56,903 nucleotides of DNA, taken from NCBI GenBank assembly GCA_012959435.1, contig DUDF01000172.1, forward strand, positions 1-56,903, read 5' to 3'. The notes beneath the pieces were generated by a model. That model searched no databases. It was given only the letters and a program-made list of their open reading frames with translations, and had not been told where the DNA came from. The DNA comes from Candidatus Poseidoniales archaeon. Its GTDB lineage: Archaea > Thermoplasmatota > Poseidoniia > Poseidoniales > Thalassarchaeaceae. The translations under genes and the position numbers were made by a program. Below are positions 3,144 to 40,889 of this stretch, piece after piece; within the stretch, counting starts at the first letter, position 1, and each line of letters begins with the position of its first letter.

Positions 3144-3214
3144 TGCGCTCGCCGGGATTTGAACCCGGGCGAAGAGGTTGGAAACCTCTGATGCTACCCC
3201 TACATCACGAACGC
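3144..3214 (-). tRNA. tRNA-Gly (anticodon TCC), CCA not encoded
   Basis: Reverse complement GCGTTCGTGATGTAGGGGTAGCATCAGAGGTTTCCAACCTCTTCGCCCGGGTTCAAATCCCGGCGAGCGCA folds into a cloverleaf. Anticodon stem AGAGG/CCTCT encloses loop TTTCCAA; T-loop is TTCAAAT. Confidence 0.96.
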
Positions 3215-35907: not shown

Positions 35908-36843
35908 TTAATGCCCATTCCTACTGAGTATTGCGTCTAAACATCCTTCAAATGTCCCCAACCAAAGGGCTACGCTCCATAACAGATAGTTACGGAAAAT
36001 AATAGCAGATACTAGAATTACTGCTGTTGCGATTACAGGGTCAAGAAAATTTGCGACCGAAACTGATAATGCAGCATATGGAATTAATAGGAATGCAATA
36101 AGCATTCCATCCTTAGAAAAATCGTGTTTCACTCCACGGTATTTTCTCATTATTCGTGTGTGTGCGCGGGCATCTCTACGACGCTTTTGAAGAAATATTT
36201 TGAGACGGCTCTCCGCTACATGGTCCACGACTGCTTCCGGCTCATATCGAATACTCCCTCCAGATTGTATTATTTTCATTGAGACCTCCATGTCCTCTGC
36301 ATGATACCAAGATGGGTCAAAGCCGCCTCGTGAAATGAGACGCTCTCTCCTGAACATTGAACATGGGCCATTAGCCAAAGTAGTTTTATCTGAACGTGAT
36401 GAGTATTTCCAAGCAATGGTACGAGACCGCAATCTGCTGACCGAAGTTCTACCTTCGTCAAAGATAACTCTGCCCGTTACAGCATCCACCCCGTCACTTG
36501 AGGTAAACATCCTCTCAAGCCAATCTGGTCTTGGGCGACAATCAATGTCAGTTATCGCTACCCACTCTCCCTTTGCAATGTTTAGTGCCTTGTTCCTACC
36601 TGCAGACAGACCCAGCGGTTCTTGTGAAAGAATTTGAATAGGAATCCCGTCAGAAGAATCATCTTCTGAGATTTGCCATTTTTGAAGTAGCTCATTGCTT
36701 CCATCTGTTGAGCCGTCATCAACAGCGATGATTTCCAGCGGCCGGTATGTTTGAGCGCATAATGCAGTCATGCAATCGTCAACCCAGTGTGCTCCGTTAC
36801 GAACACAAACTGTGATGCTAATTAGTGGAGAAGTCACTCTCAC
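35908..36843 (-). CDS. Glycosyltransferase family 2
   Basis: IIAVDDGSTDGS, GRNKAL, DID (DxD), GGFD...AEDME and C-terminal TM helices. Confidence 0.92.
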   Translation of the reverse strand: MRVTSPLISITVCVRNGAHWVDDCMTALCAQTYRPLEIIAVDDGSTDGSNELLQKWQISEDDSSDGIPIQILSQEPLGLSAGRNKALNIAKGEWVAITDIDCRPRPDWLERMFTSSDGVDAVTGRVIFDEGRTSVSRLRSRTIAWKYSSRSDKTTLANGPCSMFRRERLISRGGFDPSWYHAEDMEVSMKIIQSGGSIRYEPEAVVDHVAESRLKIFLQKRRRDARAHTRIMRKYRGVKHDFSKDGMLIAFLLIPYAALSVSVANFLDPVIATAVILVSAIIFRNYLLWSVALWLGTFEGCLDAILSRNGH

Positions 36844-37856
36844 AGCTCCTTAGTGAATACATCAAGAAGTCTACGGCAATTTTCTTTGGTCTCTTGGCTA
36901 GTAATCCTGACGACAACCCCTTTTCCTGGTTGACCATATATTACAGCACAACCTATTGGAGCGAGTAAGTGAACAATGATGGGCGCTAAGTCCTCTTCAC
37001 CATTTACCACAATAAGAGTTGGGCGGCTATTCAAGAGTGCTACCTTTGTAGTTAATTTCAAGTCTGCAGTGATGAGCCCTGGGGGATTTGAACAAGTTGA
37101 TAGATGTGCAAATAATTCTCTGTCAAGGTTTTCTGCTTCAGCCCAAATCTCACGCTTTGTCATTCCGTCGATGAACGATATGTCTGGAATCTCTCCCATG
37201 TCAACTAATGTTTGTACAGTAACATCTCCGACAGCAATCAATTTTGGTGATGACTCTGAAATTGAGGCAATGGCTCTTCGCATCGCTACTTCAGGCCTTG
37301 ACTCGGGTCCTTCATGAAGGGTTCCAAATGGTTGTTTTAATTCGTCGTCTAAGATTTCTGGCATTCGCTGGTCAAGGTACATCTCAGCCTCTCCGAGCCA
37401 AGGCTGACCTTGACGGTCAATTTCACCATCTCGTATTCTGCTTGAAGAAATGATTTCACCAGCCGGCCCCACAATATGTTCTACCACAATAATACTCAAA
37501 GGAGGCAAGTCTCCACGTTTTCTTGAACTATTGATCTCTTCACATGCAGGTTTGGTTTCAGGGGTGCATCCTATCGAATCGGCCTCTAAACTAGTTGAGG
37601 CGGGGCCTACTTCATTCTCTAATAAATGAATAGATACCCGATCATTACCATCTTCAGAAACCACCCAATCCAAAATGTCTTTTTTACGGGTGTCCCAATC
37701 TAAAACAATCGAGGTTTTTAATTGGGCCATATTATCGCTTGTCAGCCATATCTGAACCTTGTCAGATTGTTCCAAACAAGTAGTGATAAGATGATGATGG
37801 CCAGCATGAAGGCGGTCAAATGTGCCACCTAGTAAACACAGTGAGTGCCTTCCCAT
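36840..37856 (-). CDS. Fused phosphopantetheine adenylyltransferase / GTP-dependent dephospho-CoA kinase (DUF359)
   Basis: N-terminal GGTFDRLHAGH and ISSSRIR (cytidylyltransferase-like PPAT); C-terminal AVGDVT, DGMTKR, NPPG, GEEDL, YGQPGKG (archaeal DPCK). Confidence 0.9.
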   Translation of the reverse strand: MGRHSLCLLGGTFDRLHAGHHHLITTCLEQSDKVQIWLTSDNMAQLKTSIVLDWDTRKKDILDWVVSEDGNDRVSIHLLENEVGPASTSLEADSIGCTPETKPACEEINSSRKRGDLPPLSIIVVEHIVGPAGEIISSSRIRDGEIDRQGQPWLGEAEMYLDQRMPEILDDELKQPFGTLHEGPESRPEVAMRRAIASISESSPKLIAVGDVTVQTLVDMGEIPDISFIDGMTKREIWAEAENLDRELFAHLSTCSNPPGLITADLKLTTKVALLNSRPTLIVVNGEEDLAPIIVHLLAPIGCAVIYGQPGKGVVVRITSQETKENCRRLLDVFTKEL

Positions 37857-37916
37857 TAAAACATCTGAGAGGTTGAACCCCAATCAAACCTACGGATAAA
37901 AAGAAGATGAAAAATG

Positions 37917-38186
37917 TGCCCCGGGGAGTAACGAACCGCCTCATCGCTTTTGGCTTGGAGGTTCTGACCCACCCCGGGGCGTCTGTCGGACAAGTGGGTG
38001 GTTCCAGTAGTCATTCCGCGCACAGCAGTCGTATGGAGACCTTCTCGCCCTGCCGCCATTTTGCACCGAGGTTCATTCCCCGAAGGGTCACCACGGCCTT
38101 CGAAGGCGGCGATACCCCGCACTTGGTACCACAGTTCATCCCTCGCCGGCGAAGGCCAAGGTCCGTGTGGTGTTGCAGCCGGGGCA
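37917..38186 (-). ncRNA. Unclassified ~270-nt structured RNA with multiple kink-turn-like hairpins
   Basis: GC-rich island between two genes, closed by the terminal stem TGCCCCGG/CCGGGGCA. On the minus strand it has a C(UUCG)G tetraloop, k-turn patterns, TATA-like elements upstream (38208-38227) and T-rich runs downstream (about 37897-37914). Confidence 0.72.
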
Positions 38187-38237
38187 AACTTTTGGGTAAA
38201 ACCACCCCTTTTGAATCCTCTTATATGTGGGAAAGTG

Positions 38238-40889
38238 TCATAATCGCCGCTGAGATGACTCTCTGAGTCCATCGTGGTAACCACTTTTTCCCGCTGCTAA
38301 TCGTGCAGCAACTTCGGAGTTCCCGCTGATAATTTCAGTAGCAGTGAAGGATGGCCACCTCTCGCGAGGTTGTAACAACCATCCAACCATTGGATGGATT
38401 TGTCCTACAACTGGTTTAGTACCGATAAGAATTGACTTCAACGCATTTAGAATGTCAGTCAACTCAGCAAACCCCTGTAACTCCACATCAATATCAACCC
38501 CCTGAAGAATTCTCTCCAAACGGGATACAAGGTCAGAGGGGCAACCTGGGTGTTCAATCGCACCTATTCCAGGAATAGTATGTATCTCACCGATTGGACG
38601 GAATAGAGCAGACGCCCATGGAATGTTCTCTCCAATAAGCATCTCACGTCCCTCTACTCCTTCAGTAATTGTGGTGAATAATTGTGGTGAAAATGGAGCC
38701 CACCATTCAATGGGTAATGATGTGATTCCCCTAATTTCTTCAATCGTTGGAGTTCTATCATCTCTCACTGTCGAGAGCAATGATATCCAGCCATTAATGA
38801 TAGGTGATGATCTTTGAGATGTCTCAATATCCCTTGCCCAACTATCATCTAATTCTCCTTGAGAAGATAGCCAAGTCAAACCCGTTAAAGCAGGAATTAT
38901 ATTTGATGGGAGAGATTTAGATATGCTTTTTGGGGCCCAACGAGCCAAATCAGAAGCAAGTTCGGGTGGTAACCATGCAACCTGGGAAAGTAAGGTAGAA
39001 GTTAGCCATGCCGAGGCAACATCATTGAAGTGATGTGAATCGATTAGAGTTCTCAACCTCAATGCTAAATCATCTTCATTACGAATCCTTTGTACCAGAT
39101 AATTGTGAGCCAACTCCTGCCAATCATAGGGCGCACTTCCTGCAACTTCTGCTAGAAATTCTATCGGGACTTTTTGTACAGGTAGCAGTGAAATCCAATC
39201 AACACCCAACCGATTACCTTGACGACGCCACAATGGCCAACGATTATCATCAGGACAAGCAATCCATGCCGCTAATGGATCAACTGATTCTATTCTATCA
39301 GCCCAATCAGCATCACCTTCTGGATAACGGAGTGATGCAGCAAACAATCTCATTTCTTCAGATGATTCTTCGGATGCATTTGGTGGCGCAGATGCACCAG
39401 CCGCAAGTCTCGCTGCTGCAACGACCCCACTTAGGGCGGAAGCAGAATGGGGAGGCACCCAAAGTGGTGGAGGAGATGTGAAACTAGGTGGTGGGCGATG
39501 GGATACCTTGCATGGTAATTCAACATCCCCAGCCAATTTCAAGAGGTACCAAGAAAGGGGGCGGATTGGATCGGGCCTAAGCGTGGGGTACGCCAGCGGT
39601 TCTTCGGGTTCTTGAGAGAGTATTGCGAGTCTAGTCCTAGGGTCTCGGAAAACTGAATGCAATTGCCCTGAATCATGTTGACCTGGAGGATATTGCAAAA
39701 CTACAGGAGTTGTTTCTTGTCGCGACAAAGACCAATCTATCAGAGAAAGCCAAGCTGTAGATGATAATCCTTGGACATCAATAATAGTATTCTCTACCTC
39801 GGTTTTTTTGCTCCATTGATGATTTGACCAATCTGATTGAAAACGTCTCCAAGTCGATTCTTCAACCCTAATGTTACCACTTCGTTTGCGGCGCCCTTTG
39901 CGAATTGCTTGAGTCAATCCTTGTAATCGGTGTTGACGCTCTTTTTCCGTAAGACGTGGGTGAGCGCGATTAATCCATGAATCAAGAATTGAAAGGGGCA
40001 GGGCATCGCCTTGGCGTCCTAAAAGTGATGCTTCCGCAATTACTAGAGCCCCGTTTGAAGCCGCTGAAAGTATAGTTGTTGTTGAAAGCCGGTCGGGCAA
40101 GATTGCACAAATAGGACATTGTGATTGAAGAGGCGAAACTGATTCATGGGCTGTCCCAAGGGTCCATGATTCTGATTCACCCATTGGCATTGGGAGGTCT
40201 GGCCACCTATCTACTGGTGGTTCACCAAACCAACTTCCAATTGCTAATTTTAGAGATTGACGCGGATCCAATAATCGAGCGCGAACTAATCCAATCACCG
40301 GTGCTGGTTCTACCCAATCAGACAATGAGGTTGTAGATTGTTCATCAGAAGGTGCGGCAACCTGCTCAAAAGATTCTAAATCGTACCATCTCACTTCTGC
40401 CTCACGTGCAACCGCCCAAACATATTCCTCCTTCACCCCTTGGATTCCACTAGAGATTACTGTTTGGTCGGAATGACTGAAACCCCCACCCCAAGGTAAT
40501 GGGATGAGGGGGCTAGAGAGAGGTTTCGTGTAAGCAAGAAGAAGTTGAGGGCCATTTTTTGCAAGTAATTTCCCAATAGCGTGTTCGGGAATTGAATCAA
40601 TGCTGCTATCAGCTAATCTAGCCAATTCATCACCAATGAAAACCTGCCAACCAGTAGCGGTGAGATGCTGTTTCGCACCTCTTTGCCCTGGTCCAGAATC
40701 TGACTGAATCAGGCCCTCCTCCCTCATTCTCTTCAATTCTGCAGATGCATGAGGCAAGCGTAGACCAACTGCTTTACTTGATCCAGTGACAGTTGATGGA
40801 CCGTCGGAAAGATGGCCCAATAACCTCCGCCTGTAACTGCCGCGGATTCGTGAAAAAGTCACCGGATTTCCACTCTTGGCCATGACCAT
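38238..40889 (-). CDS. Large hypothetical protein with N-terminal winged helix-turn-helix
   Basis: N-terminus RRRLLGHLSDGPSTVT...LPHASAELKRMREEGLI...HLTATG resembles ArsR/MarR wHTH; the Trp/Pro-rich remainder is unrecognised. Confidence 0.75.
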   Translation of the reverse strand: MVMAKSGNPVTFSRIRGSYRRRLLGHLSDGPSTVTGSSKAVGLRLPHASAELKRMREEGLIQSDSGPGQRGAKQHLTATGWQVFIGDELARLADSSIDSIPEHAIGKLLAKNGPQLLLAYTKPLSSPLIPLPWGGGFSHSDQTVISSGIQGVKEEYVWAVAREAEVRWYDLESFEQVAAPSDEQSTTSLSDWVEPAPVIGLVRARLLDPRQSLKLAIGSWFGEPPVDRWPDLPMPMGESESWTLGTAHESVSPLQSQCPICAILPDRLSTTTILSAASNGALVIAEASLLGRQGDALPLSILDSWINRAHPRLTEKERQHRLQGLTQAIRKGRRKRSGNIRVEESTWRRFQSDWSNHQWSKKTEVENTIIDVQGLSSTAWLSLIDWSLSRQETTPVVLQYPPGQHDSGQLHSVFRDPRTRLAILSQEPEEPLAYPTLRPDPIRPLSWYLLKLAGDVELPCKVSHRPPPSFTSPPPLWVPPHSASALSGVVAAARLAAGASAPPNASEESSEEMRLFAASLRYPEGDADWADRIESVDPLAAWIACPDDNRWPLWRRQGNRLGVDWISLLPVQKVPIEFLAEVAGSAPYDWQELAHNYLVQRIRNEDDLALRLRTLIDSHHFNDVASAWLTSTLLSQVAWLPPELASDLARWAPKSISKSLPSNIIPALTGLTWLSSQGELDDSWARDIETSQRSSPIINGWISLLSTVRDDRTPTIEEIRGITSLPIEWWAPFSPQLFTTITEGVEGREMLIGENIPWASALFRPIGEIHTIPGIGAIEHPGCPSDLVSRLERILQGVDIDVELQGFAELTDILNALKSILIGTKPVVGQIHPMVGWLLQPRERWPSFTATEIISGNSEVAARLAAGKSGYHDGLRESSQRRL

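What the first reader, a model, noticed from the sequence alone, without database searches (positions are those of the whole stretch)
37917..38186. Unclassified ~270-nt structured RNA with several kink-turn hairpins
Seen (minus strand): an 8-bp terminal stem UGCCCCGG/CCGGGGCA enclosing several arms. One is a clean k-turn, GGU-GA-CCC(UUCG)GGG-AAU-GA-ACC (38070-38092). Further k-turn-like arms lie at 38128-38171 (GA-CCU...AGG-GAU-GA), 38022-38056 (GCAG-GGC-GA...GA-CUGC) and 37933-37964 (AA-GC...GC-GAU-GA). A plain hairpin ACCCAC/GUGGGU lies at 37967-37999. There are TATA-like elements upstream and U-tracts downstream. I do not see the RNase P motifs GAGGAAnnUCC and ACAnAAnnnGGCUUA, or the SRP helix-8 motif CAGG-GNRA-AGCA. 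Established: k-turns bind archaeal L7Ae. Inference: a novel L7Ae-scaffolded RNA or a multi-hairpin guide RNA. A highly diverged RNase P RNA is also possible, since GAUGAACUG could pair with CGGUUCGUU in a P4-like position.
Basis: partly seen in the sequence, partly recalled or inferred. Interest (0 to 1): 0.82.

Follow-up and report, generated by a model that had tools for sequence, protein, structure and literature searches.

The report
Four-hairpin H/ACA pseudouridylation guide RNA
This is a small RNA of marine archaea built from four tandem guide hairpins that most likely direct an enzyme to convert four specific uridines at the working centre of the large ribosomal RNA into pseudouridine; it belongs to a known class but has one hairpin more than described for archaea.

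Summary
The RNA is real: a 272-nt minus-strand gene (window 38186-37915) conserved across Marine Group II archaea (Poseidoniales). It is not an unclassified RNA. It is a box H/ACA guide sRNA made of four tandem hairpins. Each has a lower stem, an open pocket, an upper stem and a K-turn ten stacked layers above the pocket. Across 28 distinct copies the stems covary (43 of 69 pairs change on both sides; 0 of 500 shuffles match), while pocket strands, K-turns and two ACA boxes stay invariant. Rfam gives only a sub-threshold hit to HgcG/Pab40, the three-hairpin archaeal H/ACA RNA (34.6 bits; cut-off 77). Predicted targets are 23S rRNA positions equal to E. coli 1915 (helix 69), 2496, 2554/2555 (A loop) and 2606. 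By my numbering arithmetic these match yeast pseudouridines 2258, 2865, 2923 and 2975. The genome encodes Cbf5, Nop10 and L7Ae, and has separate canonical RNase P and SRP RNAs. The enclosing terminal stem, two other helices and the RNase P idea are not supported. New here: a fourth hairpin, seen only in Poseidoniales among the genomes searched, and no ANA box after hairpins 1 and 2. Pseudouridylation itself is untested.

The parts
37915..38186 (-). Whole four-hairpin box H/ACA sRNA (272 nt). RNA position p corresponds to window 38187-p.
   Evidence: Covariance model R1 matches 37913-38188 at 305.3 bits. 28 distinct homologues are aligned. The four-hairpin structure has 87.6% paired cells and 43 of 69 pairs with changes on both sides; 0 of 500 shuffles reach this. 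Contigs of four RNA libraries lie inside 37921-38180.
38113..38186 (-). Hairpin 1 (RNA 1-74). Lower stem 7 bp, pocket, upper stem, K-turn. No ANA box follows it. Found in every Poseidoniales copy examined and in none of the 22 matches examined from other lineages.
   Evidence: Helices 1-3 are 93-96% paired, and 12 of 16 pairs change on both sides. None of 22 non-Poseidoniales matches carries its guide motifs.
38172..38179 (-). Hairpin 1, 5' guide strand (RNA 8-15).
   Evidence: Five of its columns are invariant in 28 copies. It pairs 5 bp with own 23S 2635-2639.
38120..38127 (-). Hairpin 1, 3' guide strand (RNA 60-67).
   Evidence: Its first four columns are invariant. It pairs only 3 bp with own 23S 2630-2632, next to target U2633.
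38136..38163 (-). Hairpin 1 K-turn: tandem sheared G.A pairs, a 3-nt bulge and the capping stem-loop (RNA 24-51).
   Evidence: Read from the sequence. The G-A and U-G-A columns are invariant. Ten stacked layers lie between the pocket and the second G.A pair.
38052..38110 (-). Hairpin 2 (RNA 77-135), the counterpart of Pab40 motif 1. No ANA box follows it in this genus; one nucleotide separates it from hairpin 3.
   Evidence: It aligns to HgcG model positions 58-120. DNA matches in the sister family cover mainly this hairpin.
38098..38104 (-). Hairpin 2, 5' guide strand (RNA 83-89).
   Evidence: Five columns are invariant. It pairs 6 bp with own 23S 2503-2508.
38058..38064 (-). Hairpin 2, 3' guide strand (RNA 123-129).
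   Evidence: Its first four columns are invariant or nearly so. It pairs 4 bp with own 23S 2497-2500, next to target U2501.
38073..38089 (-). Hairpin 2 K-turn with a 3-bp capping stem and tetraloop (RNA 98-114).
   Evidence: Read from the sequence. Columns are invariant. Helix 6 is 100% paired.
37988..38050 (-). Hairpin 3 (RNA 137-199).
   Evidence: Helices 8-10: 11 of 16 pairs change on both sides. Conserved in other Thermoplasmatota.
38038..38043 (-). Hairpin 3, 5' guide strand (RNA 144-149).
   Evidence: Four columns are invariant. It pairs with the 3' side of the A-loop site: 3 bp in this genus and 6 bp in the Marine Group IIa copy.
37995..38002 (-). Hairpin 3, 3' guide strand (RNA 185-192).
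   Evidence: Five columns are invariant. It pairs with own 23S 2575-2581 with one internal mismatch in this genus. The pairing is contiguous in other lineages.
38011..38030 (-). Hairpin 3 K-turn (RNA 157-176).
   Evidence: Read from the sequence. Columns are invariant.
37984..37986 (-). ACA box of hairpin 3 (RNA 201-203).
   Evidence: Invariant in 28 of 28 copies. It lies 15 nt from RNA 186 and 16 nt from RNA 185.
37918..37980 (-). Hairpin 4 (RNA 207-269), the counterpart of Pab40 motif 3. Canonical 10/6/9 geometry.
   Evidence: It aligns to HgcG model positions 197-268. The lower stem is 100% paired with 5 of 9 pairs changed on both sides.
37965..37971 (-). Hairpin 4, 5' guide strand (RNA 216-222).
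   Evidence: It pairs 6 bp with own 23S 1930-1935.
37927..37932 (-). Hairpin 4, 3' guide strand (RNA 255-260).
   Evidence: Invariant core. It pairs 5-6 bp with own 23S 1922-1927 within its own length, next to target U1928. The scan counts 9 contiguous bp because the run continues into the lower-stem letters.
37941..37956 (-). Hairpin 4 K-turn (RNA 231-246). In this genome one sheared pair is A.A; in most relatives it is G.A.
   Evidence: Read from the sequence and from the alignment.
37915..37917 (-). Terminal ACA box (RNA 270-272).
   Evidence: Invariant in 28 of 28 copies. It lies 15 nt after the first 3'-guide nucleotide.
37898..37914 (-). T-rich tract directly after the terminal ACA box; a likely archaeal transcription stop.
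   Evidence: Read. Its role as a terminator is inferred.
38221..38226 (-). TATA-like hexamer 35-40 nt upstream of hairpin 1; a possible promoter element.
   Evidence: Read. Not tested. No transcript 5' end is available.

Best explanation
The minus strand of 38186-37915 encodes one small RNA that is a box H/ACA pseudouridylation guide with four tandem guide hairpins.

Proposed mechanism:
- Each hairpin binds L7Ae at its K-turn, and Cbf5-Nop10 at the pocket and lower stem.
- Precursor 23S rRNA pairs with the two pocket strands. The target U and one or two neighbouring nucleotides stay unpaired at the foot of the upper stem.
- Cbf5 then isomerises that U to pseudouridine.

Predicted targets in the organism's own 23S rRNA:
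- Hairpin 4: U1928, equal to E. coli 1915 in helix 69.
- Hairpin 2: U2501, equal to E. coli 2496 at the peptidyl-transferase centre.
- Hairpin 3: U2581 or U2582, equal to E. coli 2554/2555 in the A loop.
- Hairpin 1: U2633, equal to E. coli 2606.

Hairpins 2 to 4 correspond to the three motifs of the known Pab40/Pf7/Afu4 RNA. Hairpin 1 was found in Poseidoniales only.

Shown here: the fold, its conservation, the guide complementarity and the presence of the protein partners. Inferred: RNP assembly and pseudouridine formation.
For: Family signal. The best Rfam match is HgcG/Pab40, an H/ACA sRNA: 34.6 bits, E = 8.9e-8, over 37919-38110. Hairpin 2 aligns to its motif 1 and hairpin 4 to its motif 3. 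Two further weak hits are also H/ACA families.

Structure. On 28 distinct copies the four-hairpin structure has 87.6% paired cells, 43 of 69 pairs with changes on both sides and 209 such cells. None of 500 shuffles reaches this. Slid controls give 37-47% paired cells and 11-15 such pairs. RNAalifold independently predicts local hairpins, with 26 of 47 pairs compensatory.

Conservation pattern. The invariant columns are the pocket strands, the K-turn G-A and U-G-A letters and the two ACA boxes. This is the pattern expected of a guide RNA.

Geometry (read from the sequence).
- Hairpins 1, 2 and 4 have ten stacked layers from pocket to second sheared pair. Hairpin 3 has nine, or ten if an invariant C.A apposition is counted.
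- Hairpin 4 is 10/6/9, with ACA 15 nt from the pocket. This matches the published rules of 14-15 nt and a 10-layer GA stem (PMC2377435 abstract and sections 22 and 31; PMC4652768 passages).

Targets with fixed geometry and contiguous pairing.
- Hairpin 4 hits U1928 with 6+9 bp; chance expectation in the rRNAs is 0.002.
- Hairpin 2 hits U2501 with 6+4 bp; expectation 0.017.
- Hairpin 1 hits U2633 with 5+3 bp, the only site passing; expectation 0.048.
- The Marine Group IIa copy of hairpin 3 hits the A-loop U with 5+6 bp as top site, in a U-N-N register.

Numbering. E. coli numbering comes from an alignment. With the yeast table of PMC5699541, the sites fall on yeast pseudouridines 2258, 2865, 2923 and 2975. 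This last step is my own arithmetic.

Protein partners. Cbf5 (314.4 bits), Nop10 (49.1 bits) and two L7Ae-family genes are present in the genome.

Distribution and synteny.
- Full-length model matches occur in 10 of 10 Thalassarchaeaceae-family genomes and 17 of 17 sister-family genomes.
- The RNA sits upstream of the same gene in 12 of 13 loci.

RNA libraries. Contigs from four RNA libraries of four studies lie within 37921-38180. One has depth 106.6.
Against: - No pseudouridine mapping exists for this organism.
- The Rfam score is far below the family cut-off (34.6 against 77).
- Hairpins 1 and 2 have no ANA box at 14-15 nt. That box is a defining anchor for Cbf5.
- The 3' guide of hairpin 1 pairs only 3 bp, whereas Muller et al. 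found the 3' duplex to be the more important one.
- In this genus the 3' guide of hairpin 3 has an internal mismatch. Its register (U2581 or U2582) is unresolved, and its A-loop site is not recovered by the strict scan.
- Gar1 was not found in this genome (77% complete) or in 5 of 5 near-complete relatives. The same search also misses Gar1 in the Sulfolobus control.
- The target letters are identical in the three other 23S genes examined, so guide-target covariation cannot be tested.
- Contigs cannot show the strand, the ends or the level of the RNA.
- Folding energy alone is not significant.
Confidence: 0.88

Rival explanations
1. Only hairpins 3 and 4, which carry ACA boxes, are active guides. 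Hairpins 1 and 2 lack the box. They would be inactive relics, or would act without catalysis as rRNA-folding chaperones or L7Ae platforms.
For: No ANA triplet lies 14-15 nt after the pocket of hairpin 1 or 2 in this genus (read). The review PMC7991803 (passage) states that the box elements are needed for accumulation and activity. The 3' duplex of hairpin 1 is only 3 bp.
Against: The pocket strands of hairpins 1 and 2 are invariant across two families while their stems covary. That indicates selection on the guide letters. Their best sites stand out against chance (expectations 0.048 and 0.017), and by my arithmetic they fall on positions that are pseudouridines in yeast. Hairpin 2 is the counterpart of Pab40 motif 1, which is active in vitro (PMC2377435 Table 1). 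Guide motifs without an ANA or NCA box are reported in Pyrobaculum (14% of motifs; PMC4652768 passage).
Confidence: 0.25
2. One reading: a new kind of L7Ae-scaffolded RNA, closed by a terminal stem that encloses several K-turn arms, with a function other than H/ACA guiding.
For: The 5' and 3' ends are complementary over 8 bp in this genome. Four K-turns are present.
Against: The terminal stem shows no covariation: 83.0% paired against a shuffled mean of 83.3%, with 378 of 500 shuffles as good, and it is broken in 7-13 of 28 rows at three pairs. Local lower stems explain the same letters and do covary. The pockets, ACA boxes and rRNA complementarity are unexplained by this model.
Confidence: 0.03
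3. A highly diverged RNase P RNA or SRP RNA.
Against: The same genome holds a canonical RNase P RNA (C145:37867-38164, 209.1 bits) and an SRP RNA (C130:93-399, 130.1 bits). Neither family hits this region even at E up to 10.
Confidence: 0.005
4. Not a separate RNA gene. The region would be a structured 3' or 5' untranslated region of a flanking gene, or part of the 142-aa open frame at 37856-38284.
For: The region lies 51 nt after the stop of the 883-aa frame and 31 nt before the next gene, on the same strand. Open frames overlap it.
Against: The 142-aa frame matches no Pfam family. The substitutions are stem-compensatory, not codon-like. The element carries ACA boxes, K-turns and rRNA complementarity. 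RNA-library contigs are confined to the element (a weak hint only).
Confidence: 0.03

Closest known systems
Pab40 / Pf7 / Afu4 three-hairpin H/ACA sRNA of Pyrococcus and Archaeoglobus (Rfam RF00064, HgcG)
   Same: Both are tandem H/ACA hairpins with K-turns. Hairpins 2 and 4 align to its motifs 1 and 3. Pab40 motif 1 targets 23S 2588 and motif 3 targets 2016 in helix 69. Muller et al. describe both as conserved with eukaryotes (PMC2377435 Table 1 and section 26). The middle motif of Afu4 was proposed to target the position that my arithmetic equates with own U2582.
   Different: The score is below the family cut-off (34.6 against 77). There are four hairpins, not three, with the extra one at the 5' end. 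No ACA box follows hairpins 1 and 2, whereas the HgcG consensus shows ACA after each motif. Pab40 motif 2 itself acts at a different site (23S 1932).
Haloferax volcanii two-hairpin H/ACA sRNA guiding pseudouridines 1940, 1942 and 2605
   Same: A single multi-hairpin sRNA supplies the Cbf5-dependent pseudouridines of 23S rRNA, including helix 69 (E. coli 1915 and 1917) (PMC5029457 passage).
   Different: It has two hairpins. Its third site equals E. coli 2572, which is not among the sites predicted here. No sequence comparison was made.
Pyrobaculum H/ACA-like sRNAs (sR203-sR210)
   Same: They are guide hairpins with a K-turn in which the ANA box can be degenerate or missing (14% of motifs) (PMC4652768 passage).
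   Different: Those are single hairpins that have lost the lower stem. Hairpins 1 and 2 here keep a covarying lower stem of 6-7 bp and sit inside a tandem array.
Yeast snoRNAs snR191, snR46, snR10 and snR42
   Same: They guide pseudouridines 2258/2260, 2865, 2923 and 2975 of 25S rRNA (table in PMC5699541). By my arithmetic these positions coincide with the four sites predicted here.
   Different: These are eukaryotic two-hairpin H/ACA snoRNAs with H and ACA boxes, encoded by four separate genes. No sequence homology was tested.
Pab35 motif 2 of Pyrococcus abyssi
   Same: It guides pseudouridine 2697. Muller et al. say the neighbouring position 2698 is frequently modified in eukaryotes (PMC2377435 section 26). 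By my arithmetic that neighbour equals the hairpin 1 target.
   Different: It lies on a different sRNA and modifies the adjacent nucleotide. No sequence comparison was made.

Membership tests
Archaeal box H/ACA guide sRNA | A hairpin made of a lower stem, an internal loop (the pseudouridylation pocket) and an upper stem | tested here: met
   All four hairpins are supported by covariation on 28 copies. RNAalifold predicts local hairpins.
Archaeal box H/ACA guide sRNA | A K-turn or K-loop in the upper stem, ten stacked layers from the pocket (PMC4652768) | tested here: met
   Read from the sequence. Hairpins 1, 2 and 4 have exactly ten layers. Hairpin 3 has nine plus a bulge, or ten if the invariant C.A apposition is counted. 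The K-turn letters are invariant.
Archaeal box H/ACA guide sRNA | An ANA (usually ACA) box 14-15 nt downstream of the pocket (PMC2377435) | tested here: inconclusive
   Met for hairpin 4 (15 nt) and for hairpin 3 (15 or 16 nt, depending on register); both boxes are invariant. Not met for hairpins 1 and 2 in this genus. Non-Poseidoniales relatives do have ACA after hairpin 2.
Archaeal box H/ACA guide sRNA | Both pocket strands complementary to rRNA around an unpaired U-N | tested here: met
   Hairpin 4 gives 6+9 bp, hairpin 2 gives 6+4 bp and hairpin 1 gives 5+3 bp. Hairpin 3 gives 5+6 bp in the Marine Group IIa copy in a U-N-N register and is weaker in this genus. The case is strong for hairpins 4 and 2 and modest for hairpins 1 and 3.
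Archaeal box H/ACA guide sRNA | The partner proteins Cbf5, Nop10, L7Ae and Gar1 are encoded in the genome | tested here: inconclusive
   Cbf5, Nop10 and L7Ae are found. Gar1 (PF04410) is not found in this genome or in 5 near-complete relatives, but the same search also misses the Sulfolobus control.
Archaeal box H/ACA guide sRNA | Pseudouridine is present at the guided positions, and the RNP is active | not testable with these tools
   This needs chemical or nanopore pseudouridine mapping, or in vitro reconstitution.
Rfam RF00064 HgcG (Pab40) | A score at or above the curated gathering cut-off (77 bits) | tested here: not met
   The score is 34.6 bits with E = 8.9e-8. Model positions 58-268 of 276 are matched, with the middle motif skipped. 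There is no hit in gathering mode.
Rfam RF00064 HgcG (Pab40) | Three H/ACA motifs, each followed by ACA | tested here: not met
   There are four hairpins, and ACA follows only the last two.
Archaeal RNase P RNA (RF00373) | A match to the family model, and being the only such gene in the genome | tested here: not met
   There is no hit here at E up to 10. A canonical gene lies on contig C145.
Archaeal SRP RNA (RF01857) | A match to the family model | tested here: not met
   There is no hit here. A canonical gene lies on contig C130.

The most novel reading that the evidence does not exclude
Hairpins 1 and 2 are fully active guide modules even though they have no ANA box. Cbf5 would be positioned by something other than the box, for example by the tightly abutting lower stems of neighbouring hairpins, whose linkers are only 2 nt and 1 nt. 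The RNP might also work without a recognisable Gar1. This would be a box-independent way of assembling H/ACA RNPs in a lineage far from Pyrobaculum. One transcript would then install four ribosomal pseudouridines that eukaryotes make with four separate snoRNAs.
Probability: 0.35. Interest if true: 0.6.

Novelty: new variant of a known kind. Interest (0 to 1): 0.42.

Why it matters
Marine Group II archaea are among the most abundant archaea of the surface ocean and have never been cultured. Nothing was found in print on their RNA-guided modification machinery.

- **Modification sites.** This gene predicts four pseudouridines at the functional core of their large ribosomal subunit: helix 69, the peptidyl-transferase ring, the A loop and helix 93. 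By my arithmetic these are positions where yeast also has pseudouridines. That would support the view of Muller et al. that these sites are ancient.
- **Architecture.** A 2021 review describes archaeal H/ACA sRNAs as having one hairpin, and rarely two or three (PMC7991803 passage). A conserved four-hairpin form extends that range.
- **Mechanism.** Two internal modules without an ANA box offer a natural test of how far Cbf5 depends on the box.
- **Annotation.** The family falls below Rfam's cut-off, so standard annotation misses it. The 28-copy alignment and model built here could seed a family covering Poseidoniales and the three-hairpin relatives in other Thermoplasmatota.

Tried and rejected
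- **Folding energy.** It does not set the region apart from shuffles: z = -1.16, and 24 of 200 shuffles fold as well.
- **RNase P and SRP.** Both are rejected.
- **Alternative targets for hairpin 1.** Short target patterns scanned over the whole genome gave only scattered sites, about as many as chance would give (10 strict and 108 wobble matches).
- **Alternative target for hairpin 3.** Own U2612/2613 (E. coli 2585/2586) gives 4+4 bp. I set it aside because it leaves the invariant distal part of the 3' guide unpaired and needs a shorter upper stem.
- **Strict scan for hairpin 3.** It does not recover the A-loop site with this genome's own copy.
- **Guide-target covariation.** It could not be tested, because the target letters are identical in the three other 23S genes examined.
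- **Other H/ACA sRNAs in the genome.** A home-made descriptor search gave 280 raw candidates, none convincing. It also failed to re-find hairpins 3 and 4, so it is uninformative. A G+C-island screen gave 354 islands, too many to be useful. Whether other H/ACA sRNAs exist here stays open.
- **Gar1.** It was not found. The Pfam search also misses one archaeal control, so this does not show absence.
- **Read cover.** The flanks of the RNA (37600-37754 and 38189-38500) have no contig cover in the four RNA libraries. 37755-37909 has depth 1.3-2 in one run.
- **Run shares.** Shares of 0.32-0.59 in 20 runs were laid for only four runs.
- **Tool limits.** Supplementary files, such as Figure S1 of Muller et al. 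on Afu4/Pf7 motif 2 and the listings of Toffano-Nioche et al., could not be seen. They may bear on the register of hairpin 3.
- **Masked rRNA.** Own 23S positions 2510-2554 read N, so targets there cannot be excluded.
Full report
**What is at the coordinates**

The minus strand of 38186-37915 was read and folded. The minimum-energy fold is four consecutive local hairpins. The energy is not exceptional: z = -1.16, and 24 of 200 shuffles fold as well.

A whole-window Rfam scan at gathering thresholds finds only a tRNA at 3144-3214. A permissive scan of 37600-38500 gives these hits:
- RF00064 HgcG (Pab40): 34.6 bits against a cut-off of 77, E = 8.9e-8, covering 37919-38110.
- Two other H/ACA families: TB11Cs5H3 at 25 bits and Pab160 at 19.3 bits.
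- No hit to RNase P or SRP.

In the HgcG alignment, hairpin 2 lies on Pab40 motif 1 and hairpin 4 on motif 3. There are no insertions or deletions between pocket and K-turn.

**Organism and rivals**

Relatives' contigs that encode the downstream gene are titled Candidatus Thalassarchaeaceae or Poseidoniales, that is, Marine Group II archaea. The assembly holding the window is 2.22 Mb and 77% complete. It contains:
- a full 23S rRNA and 16S rRNA;
- a canonical RNase P RNA at 209.1 bits;
- an SRP RNA at 130.1 bits.

This disposes of the RNase P and SRP readings. The assembly also encodes Cbf5 (314.4 bits, matched over positions 8-321 of 322, so the C-terminal PUA region is included), Nop10 (49.1 bits) and two L7Ae-family proteins. 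Gar1 (PF04410) was not found here or in 5 of 5 near-complete relatives. That search also misses one archaeal control, so absence is not shown.

**Conservation and structure**

A DNA search of 41 genomes, own included, found the element in 33.
- It was full length in 18 of 20 genomes of the same genus and in two other genera of the family.
- In 12 of 14 sister-family genomes only the hairpin 2 part matched.

Reading those sister-family loci showed the same four-hairpin layout with very different stems. I aligned 28 distinct copies, 20 from Marine Group IIb and 8 from IIa. One identical duplicate and one truncated copy were dropped.

The invariant columns are the pocket strands, the K-turn letters and the two ACA boxes. 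The stems vary.

| Structure tested on the 28 copies | Cells paired | Shuffle control |
|---|---|---|
| Four-hairpin structure | 87.6% (shuffled mean 77.2%) | 0 of 500 shuffles reach it |

For the four-hairpin structure, 43 of 69 pairs change on both sides, giving 209 such cells. Slid controls give 37-47% paired cells and 11-15 such pairs. RNAalifold on the same alignment predicts local hairpins, with 26 of 47 pairs compensatory. One caution applies: the alignment comes from MAFFT and is shifted in places, mainly the 5' side of hairpin 4 in the distant rows. The counts for helices 4, 8 and 12 are therefore underestimates.

**Anatomy against the published rules**

The published rules are:
- Muller et al. 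2008 (PMC2377435; abstract and sections 22, 26, 27 and 31 read). Active Pyrococcus motifs have the ANA box 14 or 15 nt from the target. The 3' guide duplex matters more than the 5' one. A U-N-N gap is tolerated.
- Toffano-Nioche et al. 2015 (PMC4652768; passages read). The stem from the pocket to the second sheared G.A pair is exactly ten layers. Canonical motifs are 10/5/9 or 10/6/9.

Read from the sequence, the four hairpins compare as follows:
- Hairpins 1, 2 and 4 have exactly ten layers.
- Hairpin 3 has nine plus one bulged nucleotide, or ten if an invariant C.A apposition at the foot is counted.
- Hairpin 4 is 10/6/9, with ACA after 15 nt.
- Hairpin 3 has ACA after 15 nt counted from RNA position 186, or 16 nt from position 185.
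- Hairpins 1 and 2 have covarying lower stems of 7 and 6 bp but no ANA triplet at the expected place. Only 2 nt and 1 nt separate them from the next hairpin.

**Targets**

The ten-layer rule fixes where each guide strand starts. With that geometry I scanned the organism's own 16S and 23S rRNA (933 uridines) for contiguous pairing, and used the whole genome as background.

| Hairpin | Best site (own 23S) | Pairing (5' + 3' guide) | Sites expected by chance in the rRNAs |
|---|---|---|---|
| 4 | U1928 | 6+9 bp | 0.002 |
| 2 | U2501 | 6+4 bp | 0.017 |
| 1 | U2633 (only site passing) | 5+3 bp | 0.048 |

In this genus the 3' guide of hairpin 3 has one internal mismatch, and no site passes for it. 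In most other lineages that position is complementary. The Marine Group IIa copy, scanned against its own 23S, gives the A-loop uridine as top site with 5+6 bp in the U-N-N register. Looser scans gave the same sites.

An alignment with E. coli rrlH places the sites as follows:
- U1928 equals E. coli 1915.
- U2501 equals E. coli 2496.
- U2581 and U2582 equal E. coli 2554 and 2555.
- U2633 equals E. coli 2606.

The target letters are the same in three other 23S genes of the phylum. The invariance of the guides therefore fits the invariance of the targets, but guide-target covariation cannot be tested.

**Link to known pseudouridines**

This step is partly my own arithmetic. The yeast table in PMC5699541 lists:
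- pseudouridines 2258 and 2260 (snR191);
- pseudouridine 2865 (snR46);
- m5C2870, Um2921 and Gm2922;
- pseudouridine 2923 (snR10);
- pseudouridine 2975 (snR42).

PMC1766470 (passage) equates E. coli Um2552 with the yeast Um, which it numbers 2920. With an offset of 369 in the current numbering, E. coli 2496, 2554 and 2606 fall on yeast 2865, 2923 and 2975.

The spacings inside the own sequence agree:
- The hairpin 2 target lies 5 nt before the C that equals m5C2870.
- The hairpin 3 target U2581 lies 2 nt after the U that equals Um2921.
- The hairpin 1 target lies 54 nt after that same U.

That helix 69 position 1915 equals yeast 2258 is recalled, not tested. For hairpin 3 the coincidence holds only if the target is U2581.

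Muller et al. state that P. abyssi positions 2016, 2549, 2588 and 2603 are conserved with eukaryotes, and that 2698 is a frequent eukaryotic site. Pab40 motif 1 guides 2588 and motif 3 guides 2016. This agrees with the Rfam alignment of hairpins 2 and 4.

**Distribution**

A covariance model was built from the alignment (R1: 275 positions, 68 pairs). It was searched in 151 genomes of the phylum, own included, and matched in 60.
- Own family: 10 of 10 genomes matched at full length.
- Sister family: 17 of 17 genomes matched at full length. Across both families the scores were 142.6-205.7 bits.
- Other Thermoplasmatota families matched more weakly, at 22.5-82.5 bits.

In the six best non-Poseidoniales alignments shown, hairpins 2, 3 and 4 keep the same guide letters. 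In five of the six an ACA follows hairpin 2; the sixth has no clear ACA there. The hairpin 1 region is short or unrelated. None of the 22 matches examined has the hairpin 1 guide motifs; in 8 of them my anchor for hairpin 2 was not found either. The simplest reading is a three-hairpin ancestor like Pab40, with a 5' hairpin gained and the internal ACA lost in Poseidoniales. This is an inference; no tree was built.

Gene order is conserved. In 12 of 13 loci fetched through the downstream DUF359/cytidylyltransferase gene, the RNA ends 30-103 nt before the start of the protein match to that gene, on the same strand. The 13th locus is a gene fragment lacking the upstream part.

**Expression**

Twenty public runs hold part of the stretch, and 17 are recorded as RNA. 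Four runs from four studies were laid. Each gave a contig lying inside the predicted RNA:
- 37921-38175, at depth 106.6. Its non-matching ends look like library adapters, which I recognise from memory.
- 37949-38178.
- 37985-38180.
- 37984-38176.

Contigs show presence in RNA libraries. They do not show strand, ends or level.

**Verdict**

The observation of a K-turn-rich structured RNA is right, but its proposed global fold is wrong. The element is a member of the H/ACA guide class and a divergent relative of Pab40/Pf7/Afu4.

It has two unusual features: four guide hairpins, and two of them without a box. A 2021 review gives one to three hairpins for archaea (PMC7991803 passage). Literature searches found no precedent:
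- No paper pairs an archaeal H/ACA sRNA with four hairpins (6 papers listed, none relevant).
- None of the 12 top-ranked of 529 papers pairs Marine Group II with H/ACA sRNAs or Cbf5.

Pseudouridine formation remains to be shown.

Noticed in passing
G000 contig C56:1344-4254 (own 23S rRNA), own positions 2510-2554: This stretch reads N because it is withheld. It spans 45 positions where E. coli has 23 (2505-2527). The 23S gene of a complete relative is 2859 nt, against 2911 nt here. There may be an insertion near helix 90-91, or the length may be an effect of masking. Targets inside the stretch could not be examined.
   Followed up: partly
G000 contig C177:3-1743: This 1.75-kb contig carries a second, partial 23S rRNA in three pieces (220-391 bits), beside the full gene on C56. 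It could be a second operon, a strain variant or contamination (contamination is estimated at 3.86%).
   Followed up: no
Whole genomes G000, G021, G022, G026, G031, G045: Gar1 (PF04410) was found in none of 6 Poseidoniales genomes. Five of them are 96-98% complete and one is a single contig. Cbf5, Nop10 and L7Ae are present in G000. The search also misses the Sulfolobus control, so Gar1 may be divergent rather than absent.
   Followed up: partly
window 38238-40889 (-): An 883-aa open frame lies directly upstream of the sRNA on the same strand and matches no Pfam family.
   Followed up: no
window 36840-37883 (-): The downstream gene combines a cytidylyltransferase-like N-terminus with a DUF359 C-terminus. 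Its position next to the sRNA is conserved in 12 of 13 loci.
   Followed up: partly
Loci L082-L103 (other Thermoplasmatota): Three-hairpin relatives of this RNA occur in several other families of the phylum, for example in 13 of 15 genomes of one family. They keep the same guide letters for the sites equal to E. coli 2496, the A loop and helix 69. Whether Rfam's HgcG model detects them was not tested.
   Followed up: partly
window 37956 (RNA position 231): In this genome and in six relatives, one of the two sheared K-turn pairs of hairpin 4 is A.A rather than G.A. The contigs of two RNA libraries carry the G variant at this place (T>C on the plus strand), which suggests strain variation.
   Followed up: no
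window 38343-38400 (-): A weak match to the Chlorobi-RRM motif (22.8 bits, cut-off 45, E = 0.041) lies inside the 883-aa frame. It is probably chance.
   Followed up: no
window 3144-3214 (-): A tRNA gene (57.3 bits) is the only Rfam match in the window above a gathering threshold.
   Followed up: no
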